From Flavobacterium sp. (lineage in GTDB: Bacteria > Bacteroidota > Bacteroidia > Flavobacteriales > Flavobacteriaceae), in the NCBI RefSeq assembly GCF_039932285.1, contig NZ_JBDTQE010000006.1, forward strand, positions 1,582-65,581: DNA of 64,000 nt. The letters run 5' to 3'. Of the stretch, positions 2,198 to 32,947 are shown one piece after another (positions within the stretch are counted from its first letter, which is position 1; the number at the start of each line of letters is the position of its first letter). The notes beneath the pieces were generated by a model that was not told where the DNA came from, searched no databases, and saw only the letters and a program-made list of their open reading frames with translations. The position numbers were made by a program, and so were the translations under genes.

Positions 2198-4640
2198 TTA
2201 TTTTTTCGAATTTAATTTCGTTATTTTCATCTAAAGTTACTTTTAAATGATCTCCTTTTTGAATTTCGTTAGAAATTATCATTCGTGATAAAGGTCTTTT
2301 TAGAAGTGTTCTTATATTTCCTTTGATTGGTCTTGCACCATATTCGCTACTAAATCCTATTAATGCAATTCTTTCTTTGTCTTCTGCAGAAATCTCTAAG
2401 GAAATCTCTAATTTTTCTAATAATTGAAGAAGTTCTTTCTTTAGATGAATATCAAAGATACGAGCCACACTTTTTGAACTAATAGGTGCAAAAGGGATTA
2501 TCTCGGTCAATCGACCTAAAAATTCAGGACGGAAATAACCTGTCATAATTTGAATTAAATCATTCGATTTAGGGATTACCTCTTTCTCAAATGATTTGAC
2601 AATAAAATCTGAACCAATATTTGAGGTAAATAGGATTACAGAATTTGAAAAATCGCCTTCTTTCCCTAATCTGTCATGTAATTTCCCTTCATCTAATATT
2701 TGCAAGAAAACGTCAAAAACCGATTTGTGTGCTTTTTCAATTTCATCAAATAGTACTATTGAGTAGGGTTTTTGTCTAATTTTATTTACTAATAAGCCAC
2801 CTTCCTCATATCCTACATATCCTGGAGGCGCACCATAAAGTAGTGCTGCGGAATGTTCTTCTTTAAATTCAGACATGTCCAATCGAATGATTGCATTCTC
2901 GTCTCCAAAAAGGAAATCTGCCATCGATTTTGCTAATTCTGTTTTACCTGTTCCTGTTGGCCCTAAAAAGAAAAATGAGCCAATTGGTTGTCCTGGTTTT
3001 GTAAGTCCTGATCGTGATTCTAAAATAGCATCAGAAACTACTTTTACAGCGTGATCTTGACCTATTACTCTTTTTTTGAGCATATTTTCAATATCGAGTA
3101 GTTTTTCTCTTTCGTCAGATTTTACTTTGCCTGCAGGTATTCCTGTGATTCCAGAAACGACAAGTGATAAGTGAGACGGGAATACTTTGTTTTCTTGTTT
3201 TTCTAACTCTTCGAGAGTATTAAGCAAGCTTTTTATATGATCTAATTTTTTATCTTTTTCGTGTAAAGTGGGATAAATAGTTATGCTTTCGTCGACTTCG
3301 TTAAATAAGTTACCTGACTTTTTTATAACATCGTTGTATAACCAATCTATTTTTTCAATTTCATCTTCTTTGAGATTGGGTAATGATTCTAATTGAATTT
3401 TTAATTCAGGAAGTTCTTTCTTAATAGTTTCTTTAGCCACTTTAAGTGACGACATAGTTCTATCAATCAAATCTAAAGCCGAATCAGGTAATGATTTTTC
3501 TTTTAAATATCGTTTAGATAATCGAATAGCTTCCTTAATACCATCTTCATCTATTGAAAAATTATGATGTTTTTGATAATGACTAATCACATTATTAATC
3601 ATTCTAAAGGCTAAATCTTGCTGAGGTTCTTGTATTTCTAGTGTTTCGAAACGTCTTGATATAGCATCGTCTTTACCCAATGTTTTTCTATATTTTTCGG
3701 TAGTCGTGGCTCCTATAAAAGTAATGTCACCCTTTGAAAGTTCAGATTTTATAATACTCGCAATGCCGCTTCCTTGATTTGAGTCAAATAATTCGTGAAT
3801 ATCATCAATAAATACAATAGGTTTGTCGTATTTTTTTAATTCATTAAATATTTTTTGCAAACGATCTTCAACTTCTCCTTTATAAGAAGCGCCTGCAAAT
3901 AACGCTCCAATATTTATTTCAAATACTGAAGCATTGTGAAATGAAGATAGAATAGTTTTATTGGCAATTTTATGACAAAATCCTTCTACTAAAGTCGATT
4001 TTCCTACACCAGGTTCGCCAGTAATGATAACGTGAGGTTTTAATCTTCTATTTAAGATTTCGGTAATTATTTTTAGTTCTTCATCGCGACCAATAATCGA
4101 AAAAATATCGTCTGTTTTTGTTTTGTTTATTTTATTGATGCAGTATTTATCTAATACTGACGAATTTCCTCTAGAGGATGAGTTCGTTGAAGAAGATGAA
4201 GAGCCTGAATTTTGTGAAATTGTATTTCCTTCAATCAGTATATCTTTTAATGAGGTTGGATTTATAGGTAAGGATTTTAACTGGTCGTGATTAAATCCTA
4301 TTCCTGGGGTTACTAAGGTAATAAGCAAGGTATTAAAATCTACTTCGGTACCAAAGTTTTTTGCAATAATTTCGGCTTCTTCAAAAACAGCAATTGCCGC
4401 ATTATCGGCAGCTGGATCTTCTGTTGGTTTCGAAACTTTTGGCAATTCATTGATGCGTACATCTGCCCATTCATCAATATAAAAAACATCGACACCTTTG
4501 CTGTCTAATAGTTTTAAAAAATCAAATTGCGGGTTTAATAAAGCTTTTAAAATATGCGATGCACTATATTTTTGATTCAGATTTTCTTTAGCAAATTGTT
4601 TTGCAACGTGAACAACCTGAGGTATTTCTTCTTGCCCCAT
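2178..4640 (-). CDS. tssH: T6SS ClpV/TssH AAA+ ATPase
   Basis: Two Walker A motifs (GEPGVGKS, GPTGTGKT), ClpB-like motifs (RVIGQDHAV, RLDMSEF, LFDEIEKAH, FRPEFLGRL), and T6SS context. Confidence 0.92.
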   Translation of the reverse strand: MGQEEIPQVVHVAKQFAKENLNQKYSASHILKALLNPQFDFLKLLDSKGVDVFYIDEWADVRINELPKVSKPTEDPAADNAAIAVFEEAEIIAKNFGTEVDFNTLLITLVTPGIGFNHDQLKSLPINPTSLKDILIEGNTISQNSGSSSSSTNSSSRGNSSVLDKYCINKINKTKTDDIFSIIGRDEELKIITEILNRRLKPHVIITGEPGVGKSTLVEGFCHKIANKTILSSFHNASVFEINIGALFAGASYKGEVEDRLQKIFNELKKYDKPIVFIDDIHELFDSNQGSGIASIIKSELSKGDITFIGATTTEKYRKTLGKDDAISRRFETLEIQEPQQDLAFRMINNVISHYQKHHNFSIDEDGIKEAIRLSKRYLKEKSLPDSALDLIDRTMSSLKVAKETIKKELPELKIQLESLPNLKEDEIEKIDWLYNDVIKKSGNLFNEVDESITIYPTLHEKDKKLDHIKSLLNTLEELEKQENKVFPSHLSLVVSGITGIPAGKVKSDEREKLLDIENMLKKRVIGQDHAVKVVSDAILESRSGLTKPGQPIGSFFFLGPTGTGKTELAKSMADFLFGDENAIIRLDMSEFKEEHSAALLYGAPPGYVGYEEGGLLVNKIRQKPYSIVLFDEIEKAHKSVFDVFLQILDEGKLHDRLGKEGDFSNSVILFTSNIGSDFIVKSFEKEVIPKSNDLIQIMTGYFRPEFLGRLTEIIPFAPISSKSVARIFDIHLKKELLQLLEKLEISLEISAEDKERIALIGFSSEYGARPIKGNIRTLLKRPLSRMIISNEIQKGDHLKVTLDENNEIKFEKINEGAIL

Positions 4641-5206: not shown

Positions 5207-6385
5207 TTAATCTGCTAAAAATGTTGGTGATGAATTTGATGGCTTGTTATCGTTGCTAAAGACTGAAGTGCTTTTGTCGTTTTTTAAAACATTTTCGTTT
5301 ACAAAAATTCCAGTATCTCTTTTTCTTCCTATATAATCTAATTGATTTAAAATAGAATAAAGGTTGTCTATTTTTGAAATAAAGTAATTGGTTTGATCTA
5401 CAGTTTCTCTAATGTCAAAAGGTTTATATTTAACATTTATAGCATCTGTAAACAAACGTTCAAAGTCCCCACTTTTTGTATCAGTCCATTCTGAAAAATA
5501 ATTAAATAACATTTCCTTACCGTCACCTGAAAAAGTGTCAAAACAATTTTTTAAGGTTCTAGCAAATCCTACTATATTGCTTAAAATGTCTATGGGTTTT
5601 GTGTTGTAATTTGTCCATTTATTCATTGTAATATGTTTTTCAACATAATTTAATGACTTGTTACAGGCTTCAAGAACCATACTAGCAATTACGTTTTCAT
5701 CTTCTGCGGTGCTTCTAAACTTTATTTTTTGTATGATTTGTACGGAATAGAATTCTATTTGTTTAAAAAACAAATCATAATTTTCAAATAAACTAATTAA
5801 ATTTGAATGACTATTTACAGTTAAGCAAGGTGGAATATAATCTGTTAGAATTTCATAACTATCTGATGATGTTTTAAATTTTGCTATTGGGAATTGTAAA
5901 GCACCAATATTATTTTGATTTACATCACTTTCTATTACAGTTGTAAAAAAATATTTTGACCTCGCGTAAGGAAACCTAGGTGGAGTTTCTAACATATTTT
6001 GTTCTCCAGATGGGATTCTATGATACGGGTCTACGTTTAGAAGCAAGTAATAGTTATTTTCTTTAAAATCAAAATCTTTCAATTCTATCTTTTCAGAAAA
6101 AGAACCTGTTAAATCGGTGATCTCTATTCGTCCTCCAGAAGGAGTTACTGCTTTAAGCATTTTTATGTCGATACTCAACTCATTGTGTGTATCAATAGAA
6201 ATTGAATATTGAAAAGGGCTCGATAAATTAGTGCTTAACAATCCGTAGTTTAAATCGCTGGTTTCAAGATTTCTTGCATCACGAACTAAATCTTCAATAT
6301 TGTCTTGCAATTCAATAAAATGATTTTTATTGATTTTCATTCCTTCAATCCAGTTTACTGGAAAGTGTTTTATGTTTTCTGCCAT
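5207..6385 (-). CDS. tssK: T6SS baseplate subunit TssK
   Basis: N-terminal VNWIEGMKINKNHF motif typical of TssK; T6SS operon context. Confidence 0.8.
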   Translation of the reverse strand: MAENIKHFPVNWIEGMKINKNHFIELQDNIEDLVRDARNLETSDLNYGLLSTNLSSPFQYSISIDTHNELSIDIKMLKAVTPSGGRIEITDLTGSFSEKIELKDFDFKENNYYLLLNVDPYHRIPSGEQNMLETPPRFPYARSKYFFTTVIESDVNQNNIGALQFPIAKFKTSSDSYEILTDYIPPCLTVNSHSNLISLFENYDLFFKQIEFYSVQIIQKIKFRSTAEDENVIASMVLEACNKSLNYVEKHITMNKWTNYNTKPIDILSNIVGFARTLKNCFDTFSGDGKEMLFNYFSEWTDTKSGDFERLFTDAINVKYKPFDIRETVDQTNYFISKIDNLYSILNQLDYIGRKRDTGIFVNENVLKNDKSTSVFSNDNKPSNSSPTFLAD

Positions 6386-28294: not shown

Positions 28295-28731
28295 AGCAGG
28301 AATGACAATTTTAGTCAATAAAAGTTTGATGGAAGGCGGCGAGCATGAATACTACCTACTAGTAGAAGCCGACAAAAAATCTAAAATATCAAACACGGTT
28401 GCAGTGTAAAATAAGGAAATAGTATTAGATCCTAATGCCCCTAAAAAAATCTGCACCATCACCAAAACCAAAAAAACCTCTAATACTCGAGTAAATTCGG
28501 CCAAAAATAAAAGGACTTGTAGGTTGAAACAAAGTAACTTTGGTGGGACTAGAGAAGCGATTCTAGATGATAGGAGAATTCCTAAGTTATAATGATTGTT
28601 GTGGACTATTTGCTAAGGAAGAATTTAAAAAAAAAGACTCTGAAACTACTGAGCAATACAAATGTAAATTTCAAGATAACAATACCACTATTGATAACTA
28701 TAAGGGAGCAAGGATCATTAAAAAAAGGTTA
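28295..28731 (+). pseudogene. Degenerate ~440-bp copy of an internal part of the 888-aa effector gene (about 21475-21920)
   Basis: AATAAAAGTTTGATGGAAGGCGGCGAGCA...GTAGAAGCCGA...ATCATTAAAAAAAGG are collinear with the effector gene; CAA->TAA and TGG->TGA stops plus an extra A. Confidence 0.85.
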
Positions 28732-28752
28732 ATTTTTTATTTTCTAGAAAAT

Positions 28753-28787
28753 CTTCATTTAATCTTCATCTAACAGAAATACTTTTG
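28753..28787 (+). promoter_or_regulatory. CTTCAT-N5-CTTCAT tandem repeat plus -7 box (TACTTTTG) for small peptide 1
   Basis: CTTCAT at 28753 and 28764; TAnnTTTG at 28780-28787. Confidence 0.75.
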
Positions 28788-28827
28788 GTTTATAAATAAT
28801 TCAATTTATAAATTAAAACCCAATGTC

Positions 28828-28995
28828 ATGAAAAAAGTATTTTTGTTAGCAGCATTATTTTTAGGAACAACTGCAATGGTAAACGCACAAACTGAACCAG
28901 CTAAAAAAGAAGTAAAGAAAGAAGCTAAAGCAACTAAAAAAGTTGTAAAAAAAGAAGTGAAAGCTACAACAGAGGCTGTAAAGGCAAAAAAATAA
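28828..28995 (+). CDS. Small exported Lys-rich peptide 1 (55 aa; not in the ORF track)
   Basis: MKKVFLLAALFLGTTAMVNA|QTEPAKKEVKKEAKATKKVVKKEVKATTEAVKAKK, with its own promoter and terminator. Confidence 0.8.
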   Translation: MKKVFLLAALFLGTTAMVNAQTEPAKKEVKKEAKATKKVVKKEVKATTEAVKAKK

Positions 28996-29017
28996 TTAAA
29001 CTTGTTTAACTGCTTTG

Positions 29018-29047
29018 AAACCGACAAAATTATTTGTCGGTTTTTTT
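29018..29047 (+). terminator. Rho-independent terminator
   Basis: AAACCGACAAA-atta-TTTGTCGGTTT followed by a T-run. Confidence 0.85.
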
Positions 29048-29172
29048 GTTGCTTTAAACTTAAAACTCCTCTAAGAAATCCAGCTTAAAACATAAAAATA
29101 AGTTAACATACTTATTGTGTATTGAAAAGAAGGCGATTACTTCATTAACTTTAATCAAAAATATATAAAATT

Positions 29173-29709
29173 ATGAAGACAGACACCCAGAATATTCTAA
29201 AATCCGAAAAAAATCAACTAGTAAAACTTCAAAATATAGTAAATAATACTATTGATGAAGAAAAGTTAATTATAAAAAATTTGCTACATCAACCCGAAGA
29301 AATACTTACAAAAGGGCAATCTATTTCGGATAAAGTAGCATCATTTGGAGGAAGTTGGAAATTTATCATTCTGTTTGGCATCGTTCTTTTTGTATGGATT
29401 TTATTTAACACAATAACACCTAAAATATTTAATTTTGATCCGTATCCATTTATTTTAATGAATCTTATTTTGTCTTGTATTGCGGCATTACAAGCTCCAA
29501 TTATTATGATGAGCCAGAATAGACAAGAAGAAAAAGACAGAAAACGAGCAGAAAATGATTATTTAATTAATTTAAAATCTGAATTAGAACTAAGGAGTCT
29601 GCATCAAAAAATTGATTTACTTTTAGAAGAACAAATCAAAGTTTTATTTGAAAGTCAAGCAAAACAACTTGAAATTTTAAAATCGATCGAAAAAAAGATT
29701 AAAATATGA
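29173..29709 (+). CDS. DUF1003 membrane protein
   Basis: VASFGGSW, FDPYPFILMNLILS and QAPIIMMSQNRQ are diagnostic DUF1003 motifs. Confidence 0.9.
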   Translation: MKTDTQNILKSEKNQLVKLQNIVNNTIDEEKLIIKNLLHQPEEILTKGQSISDKVASFGGSWKFIILFGIVLFVWILFNTITPKIFNFDPYPFILMNLILSCIAALQAPIIMMSQNRQEEKDRKRAENDYLINLKSELELRSLHQKIDLLLEEQIKVLFESQAKQLEILKSIEKKIKI

Positions 29710-30380
29710 ATATTCTTATTGTAGAAGATAACATAGAATTAGCAAAAGAAGTAAGTCATTTTCTTTCTAATTCAGGACATATTTGCAAAATTTCAAACAA
29801 TTGTAATGAAGCGTATGAAGAAATAAATAGTAATGATTATGATGTTATACTATTAGATTTGGGCTTACCAGATGGAACCGGATTCGATATTCTTAAATCC
29901 GTTCGAAAAACGGCTTCTAAAACGGCAATCATTATCATTACAGCGCGAGGCGAACTTGACGATAGGATAAATGGTTTGCATTTAGGAGCCGATGATTATC
30001 TCACCAAACCGTTTGCGCTTACCGAACTTCAAGCGCGATTATTTGCGGTAATTAGACGAATTCATGGGTTCACAAATAATGAATTAAAAGTGCATGATTT
30101 CAGTATTCAATTGCAAGATTACAAAGTTAGTTTTAATGATATTTTAATCAATTTAACCAAAAAGGAATTTGATATTTTTCAGTATTTAGTTTTAAATAAG
30201 AATAGAGTAATTACCCGTTTACAACTTACTGAGCATGTTTGGGGAGATATTCTTGAGGTTAATTCTGATTCTAATTTTATCGATGTTCATGTGCGTAATC
30301 TGAGAAAAAAACTAGACAAACATTCTAAAATAGATTGGTTTGAAACCGTTAGAAATGTAGGTTATCGAATAAACATTTAA
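29706..30380 (+). CDS. OmpR-family response regulator
   Basis: LIVED, LLDLGLPD, GADDYLTKPF and a winged-helix C-terminus (ETVRNVGY). Confidence 0.92.
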   Translation: MNILIVEDNIELAKEVSHFLSNSGHICKISNNCNEAYEEINSNDYDVILLDLGLPDGTGFDILKSVRKTASKTAIIIITARGELDDRINGLHLGADDYLTKPFALTELQARLFAVIRRIHGFTNNELKVHDFSIQLQDYKVSFNDILINLTKKEFDIFQYLVLNKNRVITRLQLTEHVWGDILEVNSDSNFIDVHVRNLRKKLDKHSKIDWFETVRNVGYRINI

Positions 30381-30383
30381 GAA

Positions 30384-31715
30384 ATGAAAATAAAGCACCA
30401 ACTTGCCATTTTTAATGCCATTTCGAGATTAATTCTCATACTAATATTATGGTTTGTATTGCCTATTTTGGTTCAAAAAGTAGTTTATCATAACACAAAT
30501 AAAAATTTACTAGAGAAGAAAGAAAAGTTTGTAAAAAACCTTGATAAACAAGAAATTTATGATTTTATAGTTAGAAATGACACGACCGAAACGTATTCCA
30601 GTTTTTCGACTTTACATAGCGAGTTTTTACAATTATATCAAATATCGAAAGAAGATTTTTCGAAAAAAGATCTTTTTTTGAAAGAAAACCGCACCATCGA
30701 AAATGAAGAAAATGAATATTTAATTCTGCAACATGATTTTGTTTATGACAAAATATTCTACGAACTCGAAATTGGTTCAAATCTTTCCGAAATTAACGAT
30801 TTTACACATGTAATTCGGCTTTTTATCATCGCAGTATTGCTTGTAATAGTCGTTTTTACTTTCTTGATTGATACTTTTTATATCGAATATTTACTAAAAC
30901 CTTTTTATAAAATTATTGATAAAAAAATTCGTCATGTAAATGAACCCGAAAATTTTGACAGTGCTCCAATTATTGCTCATTCTTCCGATTTTCAGGAGTT
31001 AGACACTGTTCTTAACGAAATGATGAACAGAATTAATGACCTTTTCAAAAAAGAAAAACAATTTATTGCTAATGTTTCACACGAATTATTAACACCAATT
31101 GCATTGTTAAAAAGCAAATTTGAAAACTTAATTCAAAATGAATCGCTCGATGACAATGCAATAGATAAAATTTCTAGTTCGCTAAAAACGCTAGATTTAT
31201 TAAAGAAAGTCATTAATAATTTGTTGTTAATTTCTAGAATTGAAAACAATCAATATTTAATAAATGAAAAAGTTAATTTGGAAGAATTGTTTTCGGAATT
31301 AATAGAAAATTTAGAAGATCGAATTAACGAAAAAAAATTAATTGTAACAAAAAACATCAAACACGAAATTAATTTTACAGGAAACAAAACCCTCATGCAC
31401 GTTTTGTTATACAATTTATTAGTAAATGCTATAAAATACAATAATCAAAACGGAAATATTTCCATTTCAGACGAATTTGTAAACGAAAAATACTGCGTTA
31501 TAATAAAAGACTCAGGAATTGGAATCGATGAATTACAGTTAAAAAATATTTTTGAGCGCTTTACTAGATTTAGTCACAATCACGAAGGACATGGTTTAGG
31601 GCTCGCAATTGCTAGTAGTATTGCTCACTTTCATAAGGTAGAAATCAATGTTATTTCAGAACCTAATATAGGAAGTTCTTTTTGCCTAATATTCCCTGAT
31701 TTCGGTAAAAGTTAA
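30384..31715 (+). CDS. Sensor histidine kinase
   Basis: Two TM helices flanking a periplasmic domain; H-box FIANVSHELLTP; N-box NLLVNAIKY; G boxes DSGIGI and GLGL. Confidence 0.92.
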   Translation: MKIKHQLAIFNAISRLILILILWFVLPILVQKVVYHNTNKNLLEKKEKFVKNLDKQEIYDFIVRNDTTETYSSFSTLHSEFLQLYQISKEDFSKKDLFLKENRTIENEENEYLILQHDFVYDKIFYELEIGSNLSEINDFTHVIRLFIIAVLLVIVVFTFLIDTFYIEYLLKPFYKIIDKKIRHVNEPENFDSAPIIAHSSDFQELDTVLNEMMNRINDLFKKEKQFIANVSHELLTPIALLKSKFENLIQNESLDDNAIDKISSSLKTLDLLKKVINNLLLISRIENNQYLINEKVNLEELFSELIENLEDRINEKKLIVTKNIKHEINFTGNKTLMHVLLYNLLVNAIKYNNQNGNISISDEFVNEKYCVIIKDSGIGIDELQLKNIFERFTRFSHNHEGHGLGLAIASSIAHFHKVEINVISEPNIGSSFCLIFPDFGKS

Positions 31716-31736
31716 ATTTCTCTTAAGCCTTATAAT

Positions 31737-31771
31737 CTTCATCTAAACTTCATTTTCTGATTATACATTTG
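31737..31771 (+). promoter_or_regulatory. CTTCAT-N5-CTTCAT tandem repeat plus -7 box (TACATTTG) for small peptide 2
   Basis: CTTCAT at 31737 and 31748; TAnnTTTG at 31764-31771; same spacing as at 28753. Confidence 0.75.
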
Positions 31772-31832
31772 ATTTATAATTATGGGGACAATAATTATAA
31801 AACTAAAAAAATAACCATTAAATCTAAAAAAG

Positions 31833-32003
31833 ATGAAAAAATTAGTAATGTTAGTTGCAGTAATAGGATTTTCTGCAATGTCTTTCGCTCAAGATGCTTC
31901 GGCTACAAAACCAGCTAAAAAACACCACAGAAAACACCACAAAACTGAGATGAAAAAAGAAGCTGCTGCAAAACAAGAAATGGCAACTCCAGCAAAAAAA
32001 TAA
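31833..32003 (+). CDS. Small exported Lys/His-rich peptide 2 (56 aa; Asr-like; not in the ORF track)
   Basis: MKKLVMLVAVIGFSAMSFA|QDASATKPAKKHHRKHHKTEMKKEAAAKQEMATPAKK. Confidence 0.8.
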   Translation: MKKLVMLVAVIGFSAMSFAQDASATKPAKKHHRKHHKTEMKKEAAAKQEMATPAKK

Positions 32004-32053
32004 TTTAATTTTCTAATTGCTTTGTATTAAGGTTAAGCTATTAAATCATGAAG

Positions 32054-32096
32054 GATAGTATTCGAAAAGTGTTTTCGAATACTATCTTTTCTTTTT
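32054..32096 (+). terminator. Rho-independent terminator
   Basis: Perfect 15-bp stem GATAGTATTCGAAAA-gtg-TTTTCGAATACTATC followed by TTTTCTTTTT. Confidence 0.85.
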
Positions 32097-32176
32097 AATA
32101 AACATCTCAAAAAATCGAATAAATTATTTTAGATTGAATCAAGATTTAAAGTAATTTTGCAAATCAAAACAATCAA

Positions 32177-32947
32177 ATGTTACTAATAGATACTCATACC
32201 CATTTATATTCCTCAGAATTCGATTCCGATCGAGACAAAATGATTCAGAATGCGATTTCAAAAGGAGTTTCTAAACTTTTTATTCCATCGATAGATGCTA
32301 GTTATACTCAAAAAATGTATGATTTAGAGGCAAAATATCCTGAAAATATTTTTCTAATGATGGGTTTGCATCCGTGTTATGTAAAAGAAAATTATCTCGA
32401 AGAATTGCAACATATAGAAACTGAATTAACGAAAAGAAAATTTTCTGCTATTGGCGAAATTGGTATAGACTTATATTGGGACAAAACCACTTTAGATATT
32501 CAGAAAAAAGCTTTTCAGTACCAAATACAATTGGCAAAAAAGTATAAATTACCGATAAATATTCATGGACGCGATGCTTTCGATGAAATTTTCGAAGTCC
32601 TTGAACTTGAAAAAAGTGACGATTTGTTTGGGATTTTTCATTGTTTTTCAGGAGATTACGAACAAGCTTTAAAAGCTATTTCTTATAATATGAAACTCGG
32701 AATTGGGGGTGTTGTCACTTTCAAAAACGGAAAAATAGATCAGTTTTTACATCAAATAGACATTGAAAATATCGTTCTAGAAACCGATTCTCCTTATCTT
32801 GCACCCGCTCCTTTTCGTGGAAAACGAAATGAAAGCGCTTATGTAACTTTGGTTGCCGAGAAATTATCGGGAATTTACAATCTTCCAGTAGAAGAAATTG
32901 CTAGAATTACGACTAAAAATGCTTTGTCCATTTTTAGAAACTGTTAA
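32177..32947 (+). CDS. tatD: TatD family hydrolase
   Basis: IDTHTHL, GLHP, IGEIGID, FHCFSG, LETDSPYLAP and RGKRNE motifs. Confidence 0.95.
   Translation: MLLIDTHTHLYSSEFDSDRDKMIQNAISKGVSKLFIPSIDASYTQKMYDLEAKYPENIFLMMGLHPCYVKENYLEELQHIETELTKRKFSAIGEIGIDLYWDKTTLDIQKKAFQYQIQLAKKYKLPINIHGRDAFDEIFEVLELEKSDDLFGIFHCFSGDYEQALKAISYNMKLGIGGVVTFKNGKIDQFLHQIDIENIVLETDSPYLAPAPFRGKRNESAYVTLVAEKLSGIYNLPVEEIARITTKNALSIFRNC

What the first reader, a model, noticed from the sequence alone, without database searches (positions are those of the whole stretch)
28828..32003. Two unannotated exported polybasic micro-proteins resembling enterobacterial Asr
Seen: ORFs of 55 aa (28828-28995) and 56 aa (31833-32003), below the ORF-track cut-off. 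Each has a Sec signal peptide, a mature N-terminal Gln, a PAKK motif and a C-terminal AKK. Mature peptide 1 has 13 Lys in 35 aa. Mature peptide 2 has 10 Lys, 1 Arg and 4 His in 37 aa (AKKHHRKHHK). Established: E. coli Asr is a basic, disordered periplasmic acid-shock chaperone with AKKHH-type motifs, controlled by the OmpR-family systems RstBA and PhoBR. Gln-starting Bacteroidota exported proteins are typically pyroglutamylated. Inference: these may be convergent Asr-like chaperones, proton/metal buffers or LPS-binding peptides.
Basis: partly seen in the sequence, partly recalled or inferred. Interest (0 to 1): 0.7.

Follow-up and report, generated by a model that had tools for sequence, protein, structure and literature searches.

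The report
Kinase-controlled polycationic exported micro-proteins of Flavobacterium
The two tiny lysine-rich exported proteins are real, conserved genes that appear to be the only recognisable targets of the two-component sensor they flank, forming a Flavobacterium-specific module that resembles E. coli's acid-shock protein Asr in composition and regulatory logic but is not related to it.

Summary
Both ORFs exist exactly as described: signal peptide, Gln at +1, PAKK, C-terminal AKK, and the stated K/R/H counts. Each is a monocistronic unit with its own promoter and a strong terminator. They are not unannotated; both are in NCBI/UniRef as unnamed proteins.

They belong to one small family. Only 109 cluster representatives match among 1.84 billion proteins, and no Pfam or NCBIfam model covers them. 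The mature parts are 31% Lys with net charge +8 to +10, and no stable fold is predicted.

Each gene is preceded by TCTTCAT-N4-TCTTCAT, 10 nt upstream of a TAnnTTTG -7 box. This promoter pattern occurs in all 80 Flavobacterium genomes (of 401) that carry the orthologous kinase. It occurs in only 2 others, usually twice per genome and flanking the kinase. It was found in none of 104 other genera.

In the window's genome a weight-matrix scan finds only these two sites. The F. johnsoniae homologues Fjoh_1619 and Fjoh_1622 have ribosome footprints.

No homology to Asr is detectable, so the resemblance is analogy. I read these as the dedicated output of the adjacent OmpR-type system. An envelope-protective polycation role is inferred, not shown.

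The parts
28752..28769 (+). Tandem direct repeat TCTTCAT-N4-TCTTCAT (CTTCAT at 28753-28758 and 28764-28769). Candidate response-regulator operator of ORF1, at about -40 to -23 from the predicted start site.
   Evidence: The exact CTTCAT-N5-CTTCAT occurs only twice in the 2.89-Mb genome, and the site scores 41.2 bits on the weight matrix.
28780..28787 (+). Bacteroidota sigma-A -7 box TACTTTTG (TAnnTTTG) of ORF1. Predicted transcription start is about 28792.
   Evidence: Consensus and position (-12 to -5) come from PMC9723704 and PMC6847099.
28828..28995 (+). ORF1, a 55-aa pre-protein. Signal peptide is 28828-28887 (aa 1-20). The mature 35-aa peptide is 28888-28992, with 13 K, 5 E and net charge +8.
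29017..29044 (+). Intrinsic terminator of ORF1: 12-bp stem followed by a T-run.
   Evidence: (-15.2 kcal/mol, z = -4.5).
29173..29709 (+). DUF1003 membrane protein. Its stop overlaps the response-regulator start (ATGA at 29706-29709). It is part of the sensor operon only in this sub-clade.
29706..30380 (+). OmpR/PhoB-family response regulator (receiver domain plus winged-helix Trans_reg_C).
30384..31715 (+). Sensor histidine kinase: two TM segments (about 12-34 and 143-165), a 109-aa acidic periplasmic PAS/PDC-like loop, then HisKA and HATPase_c.
31736..31753 (+). Tandem direct repeat (CTTCAT at 31737-31742 and 31748-31753). Candidate operator of ORF2.
   Evidence: 41.7 bits.
31764..31771 (+). 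Sigma-A -7 box TACATTTG of ORF2. Predicted transcription start is about 31776.
31833..32003 (+). ORF2, a 56-aa pre-protein. Signal peptide is 31833-31889 (aa 1-19). The mature 37-aa peptide is 31890-32000, with 10 K, 1 R and 4 H, net charge +7 (+11 if His is protonated).
32050..32090 (+). Intrinsic terminator of ORF2: 19-bp stem followed by a T-run.
   Evidence: (-26.5 kcal/mol, z = -5.3).

Best explanation
ORF1 and ORF2 are paralogous members of a Flavobacterium-specific family of Sec-exported, Lys-rich micro-proteins of about 35-50 mature residues with no stable predicted fold. I read them as the dedicated, and in this genome the only recognisable, transcriptional targets of the OmpR/PhoB-type two-component system they flank. 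The proposed mechanism runs as follows. The kinase senses an envelope or periplasmic cue through its acidic PAS/PDC-like loop. The phosphorylated regulator binds head-to-tail to the TCTTCAT-N4-TCTTCAT repeat, which sits where a -33 element would be, 10 nt upstream of the -7 box (pho-box geometry). This activates two monocistronic genes. Their products are cleaved by signal peptidase I, and the N-terminal Gln probably becomes pyroglutamate. They accumulate in the periplasm as polycations (net +7 to +10). There they are inferred to bind anionic envelope components or client proteins electrostatically, as an Asr-like protectant or charge buffer, and possibly also to feed back on the kinase. Shown: gene reality, family membership, promoter architecture, co-occurrence with the kinase, and translation of homologues. 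Inferred: direct binding by this regulator, periplasmic location, the stimulus and the biochemical role.
For: Coding and conservation:
- Frame and codon-position signature hold in 141 homologues.
- ORF1 and ORF2 align at E=8e-4. Intermediates carry the ORF1-type signal peptide with a KKHHRKH motif. The family alignment is A3.

Transcription units:
- The two genes share a promoter block and have strong terminators.
- A logo from 137 unique sites reads aTCTTCATTTtnTCTTCATtTt-N7-TAnnTTTGA, with the ATG 58-63 nt after the repeat.

Link to the two-component system:
- The 35-nt pattern is found in 82 of 401 genus genomes, against 0 for the reversed control.
- All 80 genomes with the kinase orthologue have the pattern, and only 2 genomes without it do.
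- There are typically two sites per genome, flanking the regulator and kinase genes.
- The pattern is absent from 104 other genera. No kinase orthologue was found in one sampled genome from each of 150 other genera of the family.

Regulon size: a weight-matrix scan of the own genome gives only these two sites (41.7 and 41.2 bits; nothing else exceeds 14).

Regulator type: Response_reg plus Trans_reg_C. Direct repeats of 7 bp with a 4-bp spacer are the known binding mode of this family (PMC4415409, PMC4832192).

Translation: in F. johnsoniae, Fjoh_1619 has 35 and Fjoh_1622 has 41 ribosome-footprint reads in rich medium. A predicted Fjoh_1622 transcript 5' end lies within about 6 nt of the position expected from the -7 box.

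Physical nature:
- Mature composition is K 31%, A 21%, T 10%, E 9%, P 8%, with no W, Y or C.
- AF2 gives pLDDT 62 and pTM 0.2, with only a low-confidence helix.
- ORF1 has a helical hydrophobic moment of 0.595 (p=0.004).

Analogy: Asr is a positively charged, disordered periplasmic chaperone. It is a direct RstBA target and also feeds back on RstBA (PMC10746267, PMC13425233).
Against: In F. johnsoniae rich medium expression is low, and Fjoh_1618 is nearly silent, so induction is unproven. The stimulus is unknown. Periplasmic retention is assumed from the absence of a lipobox or a T9SS C-terminal domain. There is no homology to Asr or to any characterised chaperone. The strict pattern and weight matrix would miss weak or differently spaced sites, so 'only targets' is a lower bound. 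In other species the same motif also precedes PepSY_like proteins and, in one case, an LPG_synthase_TM gene. Another regulator could in principle recognise the repeat.
Confidence: 0.5

Rival explanations
1. The peptides are mainly modulators or ligands of their own kinase, acting as a periplasmic feedback loop in the manner of CpxP on CpxA, ZraP on ZraS, or the positive feedback of Asr on RstBA. Their main role would then be to shape signalling rather than to protect the envelope.
For: The peptides are encoded on both sides of the two-component system and are its only strong predicted targets. The kinase's periplasmic loop is mostly net-negative (-3 to -11 in 8 of 9 orthologues) with 11 invariant acidic positions, which suits a polycation partner. 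Small proteins that feed back on their own kinase are common, and Asr itself does so (PMC13425233).
Against: A system whose sole output is its own modulator would have no physiological effect, so some effector role is still needed. Two or three paralogues with fast-evolving low-complexity sequences argue against a specific protein-protein interface. No interaction data exist.
Confidence: 0.2
2. The peptides are periplasmic metal (Ni, Co, Cu or Zn) or proton buffers, acting through their His-rich motifs and controlled by a metal-sensing two-component system.
For: ORF2 carries KKHHRKHHK, and many upstream-type members carry KHPKHK. JGI names some homologues 'Ni/Co efflux regulator RcnB'. The regulator scores well, though below cut-off, against the heavy-metal and PmrA models.
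Against: His is sparse, at 2.1% of mature residues and 0.6-1.3 per peptide. Many members, including ORF1, have none. There is no Pfam RcnB hit. No metal transporter or efflux gene is linked. The JGI name is an automated label.
Confidence: 0.1
3. The peptides are released from the cell as cationic antimicrobial or competition peptides, or as peptide signals. This would be a Sec-dependent counterpart of Gram-positive modules that combine a pheromone or bacteriocin gene with a kinase and a regulator, using direct-repeat promoters.
For: The architecture fits: small peptide genes, a kinase, a regulator and direct repeats in the peptide promoters. The mature parts diverge rapidly between species. 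ORF1 is a significantly amphipathic cationic helix.
Against: There is no double-glycine leader, dedicated exporter, immunity gene or T9SS C-terminal domain, and neighbours are housekeeping genes. The hydrophobic face is only Ala and Val, and Glu is interspersed, which is atypical for membrane-lytic peptides. No route across the outer membrane is evident.
Confidence: 0.07
4. The ORFs are chance or non-coding features, and the conserved element is a small RNA or just a promoter.
For: The ORFs are very short, the sequence is low-complexity and A-rich in an AT-rich genome (31% GC), and there is no family annotation.
Against: The frame is open in 141 of 141 homologues, while the +1 and +2 frames are closed in all. 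The third-position variation pattern is that of coding sequence. The signal peptide is conserved. Ribosome footprints are seen on the F. johnsoniae homologues. There is no Rfam match.
Confidence: 0.02

Closest known systems
E. coli Asr (periplasmic acid-shock protein and disordered chaperone; Pfam PF06392), a target of RstBA and PhoBR
   Same: Both have a Sec signal peptide and a small, basic, low-complexity mature part rich in K, A, T and P, with or without His. ORF2 has HHRKHH against HHKKQH in Asr. Both lack a stable fold, are transcribed from a promoter controlled by an OmpR-family two-component system, and could plausibly feed back on the kinase.
   Different: No sequence homology is detectable. 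The mature part is about half the length (35-50 aa against about 80 aa). It has far more Lys and Glu and far fewer His and Gln. The genes lie immediately beside their two-component system, in two or three paralogous copies. The family is restricted to Flavobacterium, whereas Asr is gamma-proteobacterial (PMC13425233). Acid induction and chaperone activity are untested.
CpxP / Spy / ZraP (LTXXQ-family periplasmic accessory proteins of CpxAR, BaeSR and ZraSR)
   Same: These are also small periplasmic proteins encoded next to, and chiefly regulated by, an envelope-stress two-component system. They combine protective and feedback roles.
   Different: They are folded alpha-helical proteins of about 140 aa. 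No LTXXQ or Metal_resist Pfam hit is seen here. The only Spy hit is noise, at E=0.06 in one member.
PhoB pho box and PmrA box promoters (OmpR/PhoB-family direct-repeat operators)
   Same: These operators have two 7-bp direct repeats with a 4-bp spacer (11-bp period). They lie immediately upstream of the downstream promoter element, in place of the upstream one. TCTTCAT resembles the E. coli pho-box core CTGTCAT (PMC4415409). The PmrA box CTTAAT-N5-CTTAAT is recalled from my own knowledge.
   Different: The promoter context is Bacteroidota sigma-A (-7 box TAnnTTTG). The regulator falls below the NCBIfam cut-offs for PhoB, PmrA and the Bacteroidota PhoB, so it is a distinct paralogue. Binding is not demonstrated.
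TIGR02953 pentapeptide MXKDX repeat proteins (small exported Lys-rich repeat proteins of Proteobacteria, function unknown)
   Same: Both have a signal peptide followed by a short Lys-rich low-complexity mature part. One family member, from F. soyangense, carries DAMKTDAMKTDAMK.
   Different: ORF2 scores 18 bits against a cut-off of 41, and only 1 of 35 members hits the model. They are not members.

Membership tests
Asr (Pfam PF06392, enterobacterial acid-shock protein) | Detectable sequence homology to Asr or its Pfam model | tested here: not met
   BLASTP against genuine E. coli K-12 Asr (fetched) gives E=0.16 over 6 residues for ORF2 and no alignment for ORF1. hhalign of the 35-member family against Asr gives 11.8% probability and covers the signal peptide only. 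No PF06392 hit at E<=1 for the window ORFs or any of 35 members.
Asr (Pfam PF06392, enterobacterial acid-shock protein) | N-terminal Sec signal peptide directing export to the periplasm | tested here: met
   Both ORFs have an MKK n-region, a hydrophobic core and an A-x-A-type site, with no lipobox Cys. The signal peptide is conserved across the family. The localisation itself could not be tested.
Asr (Pfam PF06392, enterobacterial acid-shock protein) | Basic, low-complexity, intrinsically disordered mature protein | tested here: met
   Net charge is +7 to +10, with K 31% and no aromatic residues. AF2 gives pLDDT 62 and pTM 0.20.
Asr (Pfam PF06392, enterobacterial acid-shock protein) | Strong acid induction through RstBA/PhoBR, and chaperone or aggregase activity | not testable with these tools
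The only expression data are from F. johnsoniae in rich medium at mid-log phase.
Regulon of an OmpR/PhoB-family response regulator | Adjacent regulator with a receiver domain and a winged-helix Trans_reg_C domain | tested here: met
   PF00072 at 1.9e-25 and PF00486 at 1.3e-22.
Regulon of an OmpR/PhoB-family response regulator | Tandem direct-repeat half-sites with a period of about 11 bp, at a fixed distance from the core promoter | tested here: met
   TCTTCAT-N4-TCTTCAT lies exactly 10 nt upstream of TAnnTTTG in 137 unique sites.
Regulon of an OmpR/PhoB-family response regulator | Phylogenetic co-occurrence of the operator with the cognate two-component system | tested here: met
   All 80 kinase-positive genomes carry the pattern. 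Of 321 kinase-negative genomes, 2 do. The reversed-pattern control gives 0 of 401.
Regulon of an OmpR/PhoB-family response regulator | Physical binding and regulator-dependent transcription | not testable with these tools
   This needs EMSA or footprinting and reporter assays.
CpxP/Spy/ZraP (LTXXQ) periplasmic accessory proteins | LTXXQ-motif helical domain (Pfam hit) | tested here: not met
   No such Pfam hit in 35 members. The NCBIfam Spy hit at E=0.06 in one member is noise.
TIGR02953 pentapeptide MXKDX repeat protein | Score at or above the curated cut-off of 41 bits | tested here: not met
   ORF2 scores 18 bits, and only 1 of 35 members hits.
RcnB (the JGI name on some homologues) | Pfam or NCBIfam RcnB-domain match | tested here: not met
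   No RcnB family appears among hits at E<=1 (Pfam) or E<=0.1 (NCBIfam).
Bacteroidota 'Q-rule' signal peptidase I substrates | Gln at position +1 after the signal-peptide cleavage site | tested here: met
   Both window ORFs have it. So do 63 of 68 downstream-type homologues, but only 6 of 70 upstream-type ones, most of which start with Phe. The rule is described in PMC5837995 and PMC10653852. Pyroglutamate formation itself was not testable.
Gram-positive-type peptide pheromone or bacteriocin three-component module | Double-glycine leader, dedicated ABC exporter and/or immunity gene | tested here: not met
   The leaders are Sec-type. The flanks encode polA, TatD, a metallophosphoesterase, a thioredoxin and a deacetylase.

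The most novel reading that the evidence does not exclude
The module is a closed, self-contained circuit. The polycationic peptides would be both the sole output and the periplasmic input of the kinase. That could make it a ribosomally encoded 'polyamine/Mg2+ surrogate' homeostat that measures and sets envelope charge. Alternatively it could be a Sec-dependent autocrine or quorum peptide signalling system in a Gram-negative Bacteroidota. Neither type has been described.
Probability: 0.12. Interest if true: 0.85.

Novelty: new variant of a known kind. Interest (0 to 1): 0.6.

Why it matters
Small proteins and Bacteroidota signalling are both poorly charted. This is a two-component system whose output can be read directly from sequence. 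It has one sharply defined operator, two or three tiny target genes, and almost nothing else. It is conserved across about a fifth of sampled Flavobacterium species, including the genetically tractable F. johnsoniae (Fjoh_1618 to Fjoh_1622). That gives three things:
- A clean model for how OmpR/PhoB-type activators work at the unusual -33/-7 promoters of Bacteroidota.
- An uncharacterised family of disordered polycationic periplasmic proteins with which to test whether Asr-like, charge-based envelope protection arose independently outside the Proteobacteria.
- A compact inducible promoter and regulator pair that could serve as a genetic tool once the stimulus is known.

Tried and rejected
- Synteny through DUF1003: the nearest DUF1003 orthologue (67% identity, G021) is not next to a two-component system. 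DUF1003 is therefore not the conserved partner, and I switched to the kinase.
- Asr homology: rejected.
- Pfam and NCBIfam naming: only sub-threshold hits driven by the signal peptide or by composition, such as Conotoxin, NetB, CopL and penta_MxKDx.
- Rfam: nothing in 28500-32300.
- A third operator in front of the DUF1003, regulator and kinase operon: the ACTTCATTAACTTTAAT there is conserved in L022 but has the wrong spacing. It reads better as the operon's own -7 box (TAACTTTA). The weight-matrix scan does not score it.
- Functional hints from neighbours: these are polA, TatD, a metallophosphoesterase, a thioredoxin and a deacetylase, so none.
- Fold of the kinase sensor: only weak PAS/PDC-like matches to the WalK/YycG extracellular domain, none at E<=0.001. 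No ligand inference is possible.
- Literature: no paper text mentions Fjoh_1618 to Fjoh_1622, and no Flavobacterium paper combines lysine-rich, two-component and signal peptide.
- Earlier scan notes by sequence or by words: nothing.


Full report
OBSERVATION

Each has:
- an MKK n-region, a hydrophobic core and an A-x-A-type cleavage site (VNA|Q, SFA|Q);
- Gln at +1, a PAKK motif and a C-terminal AKK;
- the stated residue counts, 13 K in 35 aa, and 10 K, 1 R and 4 H in 37 aa.

Each ORF is followed by a strong intrinsic terminator. These lie at 29017-29044 (z = -4.5) and 32050-32090 (z = -5.3). No Rfam family matches the region.

The ORFs are not truly unannotated. Both exact sequences are in NCBI and UniRef.

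THE ORFS ARE GENES AND FORM ONE FAMILY

Word-based searches found close homologues in Flavobacterium genomes and metagenomes. Some of these carry an ORF1-type signal peptide together with an ORF2-type KKHHRKH motif, which links the two window proteins. ORF1 and ORF2 also align directly at E = 8e-4.

A 35-member alignment (A3) gives this consensus: MKKLxMLxxxxLGTxAMVNA|QTxPxKxxPAKEVKAxKHxK...KKxKxE...KAKK.

Over 138 unique members the mature parts have these properties:
- K 31%, A 21%, T 10%, E 9%, P 8%, V 5%, H 2%, R 0.4%;
- no W, Y or C;
- mean net charge +8 to +10.

Two results show coding selection. Only frame 0 is open in 141 of 141 homologues. Third codon positions are the most variable.

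A profile search of 1.84 billion cluster representatives finds only 109 hits at E <= 1e-3, nearly all about 45-125 aa long. The family is therefore small and narrow, and no Pfam or NCBIfam model covers it.

AF2 with the family alignment predicts no stable fold (pLDDT 62, pTM 0.20). It shows the signal-peptide helix and a low-confidence helix over the mature part. ORF1's mature peptide is significantly amphipathic as a helix, with a hydrophobic moment of 0.595 (p = 0.004 against shuffles). ORF2's is not.

THE SURROUNDINGS

Three genes lie between the two ORFs:
- a DUF1003 membrane protein (29173-29709), whose stop overlaps the next start;
- an OmpR/PhoB-type response regulator (29706-30380);
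- a histidine kinase (30384-31715).

The kinase has two TM segments and a 109-aa periplasmic loop. The loop is net-negative in 8 of 9 orthologues and has 11 invariant acidic positions. Its predicted fold is PAS/PDC-like, with only weak matches to the WalK/YycG extracellular domain.

THE KEY FINDING IS THE PROMOTER

Both ORFs are preceded by the same block. It consists of TCTTCAT-N4-TCTTCAT, then 10 nt, then TAnnTTTG. TAnnTTTG is the Bacteroidota sigma-A -7 box, located at -12 to -5 (PMC9723704; PMC6847099). The repeats therefore occupy roughly -40 to -23 and take the place of a -33 element.

This is the geometry of pho boxes and of OmpR/PhoB-family operators in general: 7-bp direct repeats with a 4-bp spacer (PMC4415409, PMC4832192).

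Evidence within the window's own genome:
- The exact CTTCAT-N5-CTTCAT occurs only twice in the 2.89-Mb genome, and these are the two sites.
- A weight matrix built from 111 unique sites of other species scores them at 41.7 and 41.2 bits. Nothing else exceeds 14 bits.

CONSERVATION OF THE MODULE

The closest relative is a Flavobacterium sp. MAG with a kinase 92% identical. It has three such micro-ORFs, each with the motif, around the DUF1003, regulator and kinase genes.

Kinase orthologues (49-65% identity, full length) occur in 80 of 401 sampled genomes of the genus. I examined 29 unnamed loci and 80 named ones, including F. hydatis, F. aquidurense, F. hibernum, F. pectinovorum, F. saccharophilum, F. 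denitrificans, F. anhuiense and F. soyangense. In nearly all of them:
- an exact motif sits 35-55 nt after the kinase stop;
- a second motif sits upstream of the regulator;
- each motif is followed 58-63 nt later by a 59-75-aa family member.

The 35-nt pattern gives these counts:

| Sample | Genomes with pattern | Note |
|---|---|---|
| Genus, all genomes | 82 of 401 | reversed control 0 of 401 |
| Genus, kinase-positive | 80 of 80 | usually exactly two sites, flanking the system |
| Genus, kinase-negative | 2 of 321 | |
| Order-level sample | 13 of 401 | all from this genus, none from 104 other genera |

In addition, no kinase orthologue was found at E <= 1e-70 in one sampled genome from each of 150 other genera of the family.

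DUF1003 belongs to the operon only in a sub-clade. In a few species the same motif also precedes exported PepSY_like proteins and, in one case, an LPG_synthase_TM gene.

EXPRESSION

One genome handle has a single contig of 6,096,872 bp, and the coordinates of the kinase hit and both motif sites fall in the F. johnsoniae UW101 gene table at Fjoh_1618-1622, so I take it to be that strain. There the module is:
- Fjoh_1618 (65 aa) and Fjoh_1619 (60 aa);
- Fjoh_1620 (response regulator) and Fjoh_1621 (kinase);
- Fjoh_1622 (60 aa).

In the published Ribo-seq and RNA-seq table (PMC6847099, Table S2; rich CYE medium, mid-log phase) the read counts are:

| Gene | RNA reads | Footprint reads |
|---|---|---|
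| Fjoh_1618 | 3 | 6 |
| Fjoh_1619 | 45 | 35 |
| Fjoh_1622 | 128 | 41 |

Fjoh_1619 and Fjoh_1622 have higher footprint density than the regulator and kinase genes. The Rockhopper-predicted 5' end of the Fjoh_1622 transcript is 1871404. That is within about 6 nt of the start expected from the -7 box, which ends at 1871405.

The family is therefore translated, at a low basal level, under non-inducing conditions. No paper text mentions these locus tags.

COMPARISON WITH Asr

I fetched the real E. coli K-12 asr gene. The results were:
- BLASTP gives E = 0.16 for HHRKHH against HHKKQH with ORF2, and nothing for ORF1.
- hhalign of the family against Asr aligns only the signal peptide, at 11.8% probability.
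- No member hits Pfam Asr.

Membership is therefore rejected. The functional analogy remains reasonable. Asr is a positively charged, intrinsically disordered periplasmic chaperone or aggregase that is massively induced by acid (PMC10746267). The asr-samT operon is a direct RstBA target whose products feed back on RstBA (PMC13425233).

The Flavobacterium proteins share several features with Asr: export, basic low-complexity composition, lack of a predicted fold, and control by an OmpR-family system. They differ in being half the size and Lys/Glu-rich rather than His/Gln-rich. They are also present in multiple copies and are physically flanked around their sensor.

MECHANISM AND CONFIDENCE

| Claim | Confidence |
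|---|---|
| These are real, exported micro-proteins | ~0.95 |
| They are the direct and principal regulon of the adjacent two-component system | ~0.8 |
| They act as envelope-protective polycations, as an Asr-like electrostatic chaperone or charge buffer | ~0.4 |
| Whole statement combined | 0.5 |

The second claim rests on comparative genomics only. The third is inferred from composition and analogy.

The rival explanations are:
- primarily feedback ligands of the kinase (0.2);
- metal or proton buffers (0.1), weakened because His is sparse and absent from many members;
- released antimicrobial or signalling peptides (0.07), with no exporter, immunity gene or leader to support this;
- non-coding or chance features (0.02), effectively refuted.

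NOVELTY

The general kind is known: a small periplasmic protein driven by an envelope two-component system, as with Asr, CpxP, Spy and ZraP. This family, its operator and the tight genus-restricted arrangement of peptide genes around the regulator and kinase appear undescribed. It is a new variant of a known kind, and it is directly testable in F. johnsoniae.

Noticed in passing
own genome, contig C32 about 26596 (+) and contig C21 about 22044 (-), outside the window: Two further small exported proteins (72 and 64 aa) have the same style of signal peptide and N-terminus (NAQTKKPKEK.., NAQETKPAKKAK..). They are both Lys- and Cys-rich (CSAAEMKKC, GCCANK, GGCCSAKK). They could be metal- or redox-related, or RiPP-like precursors. 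ORF1 gave a very weak hit to the chryseobasin RiPP precursor model.
   Followed up: no
window 29173-29709 and 29706-29709: The DUF1003 gene is translationally coupled to the response regulator through an ATGA overlap. It is part of the operon only in the window's sub-clade and in one other species (G603). Most species with the module lack it. The nearest DUF1003 orthologue elsewhere (G021, 67% identity) is not next to a two-component system.
   Followed up: partly
L151 (G603:C8) 1012-2228 and 5274-6261; L152 (G165:C6), minus strand: In two species the identical operator and -7 box also precede exported PepSY_like (PF11396) proteins and two uncharacterised exported proteins next to the same two-component system. 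This suggests a slightly larger regulon in some lineages.
   Followed up: partly
L149 (G186:C57), minus strand, motif at 978, gene from 1045: One exact operator and -7 box lies away from the two-component system and precedes an LPG_synthase_TM (PF03706, MprF-like flippase-type) membrane protein. This is a possible link to membrane-charge remodelling, but it is a single instance.
   Followed up: partly
L150 (G009:C3), minus strand, motif at 2925, ORF 2988-3173: This is an orphan family member: a 61-aa micro-ORF with a perfect operator in a genome where no kinase orthologue was found at E<=1e-60. A second pattern-positive, kinase-negative genome (G072) is only 73% complete.
   Followed up: no
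L153 (F. johnsoniae UW101, 1868500-1871800): The annotated start of Fjoh_1621 (1870078) is 72 nt downstream of the start conserved in all orthologues (1870006). The public gene model probably truncates the first transmembrane segment of the kinase.
   Followed up: no
L022 6293-6562 compared with window 28996-29172: The closest relative has a third micro-ORF (63 aa, MKKIVMLVAVILGTSFANA|NTVPAKVNASKEVKINKIRKHK...) with its own operator, between the ORF1 homologue and DUF1003. The window's genome lacks it; its intergenic gap is about 177 nt against about 610 nt. Copy number in the family varies from one to three per locus.
   Followed up: partly
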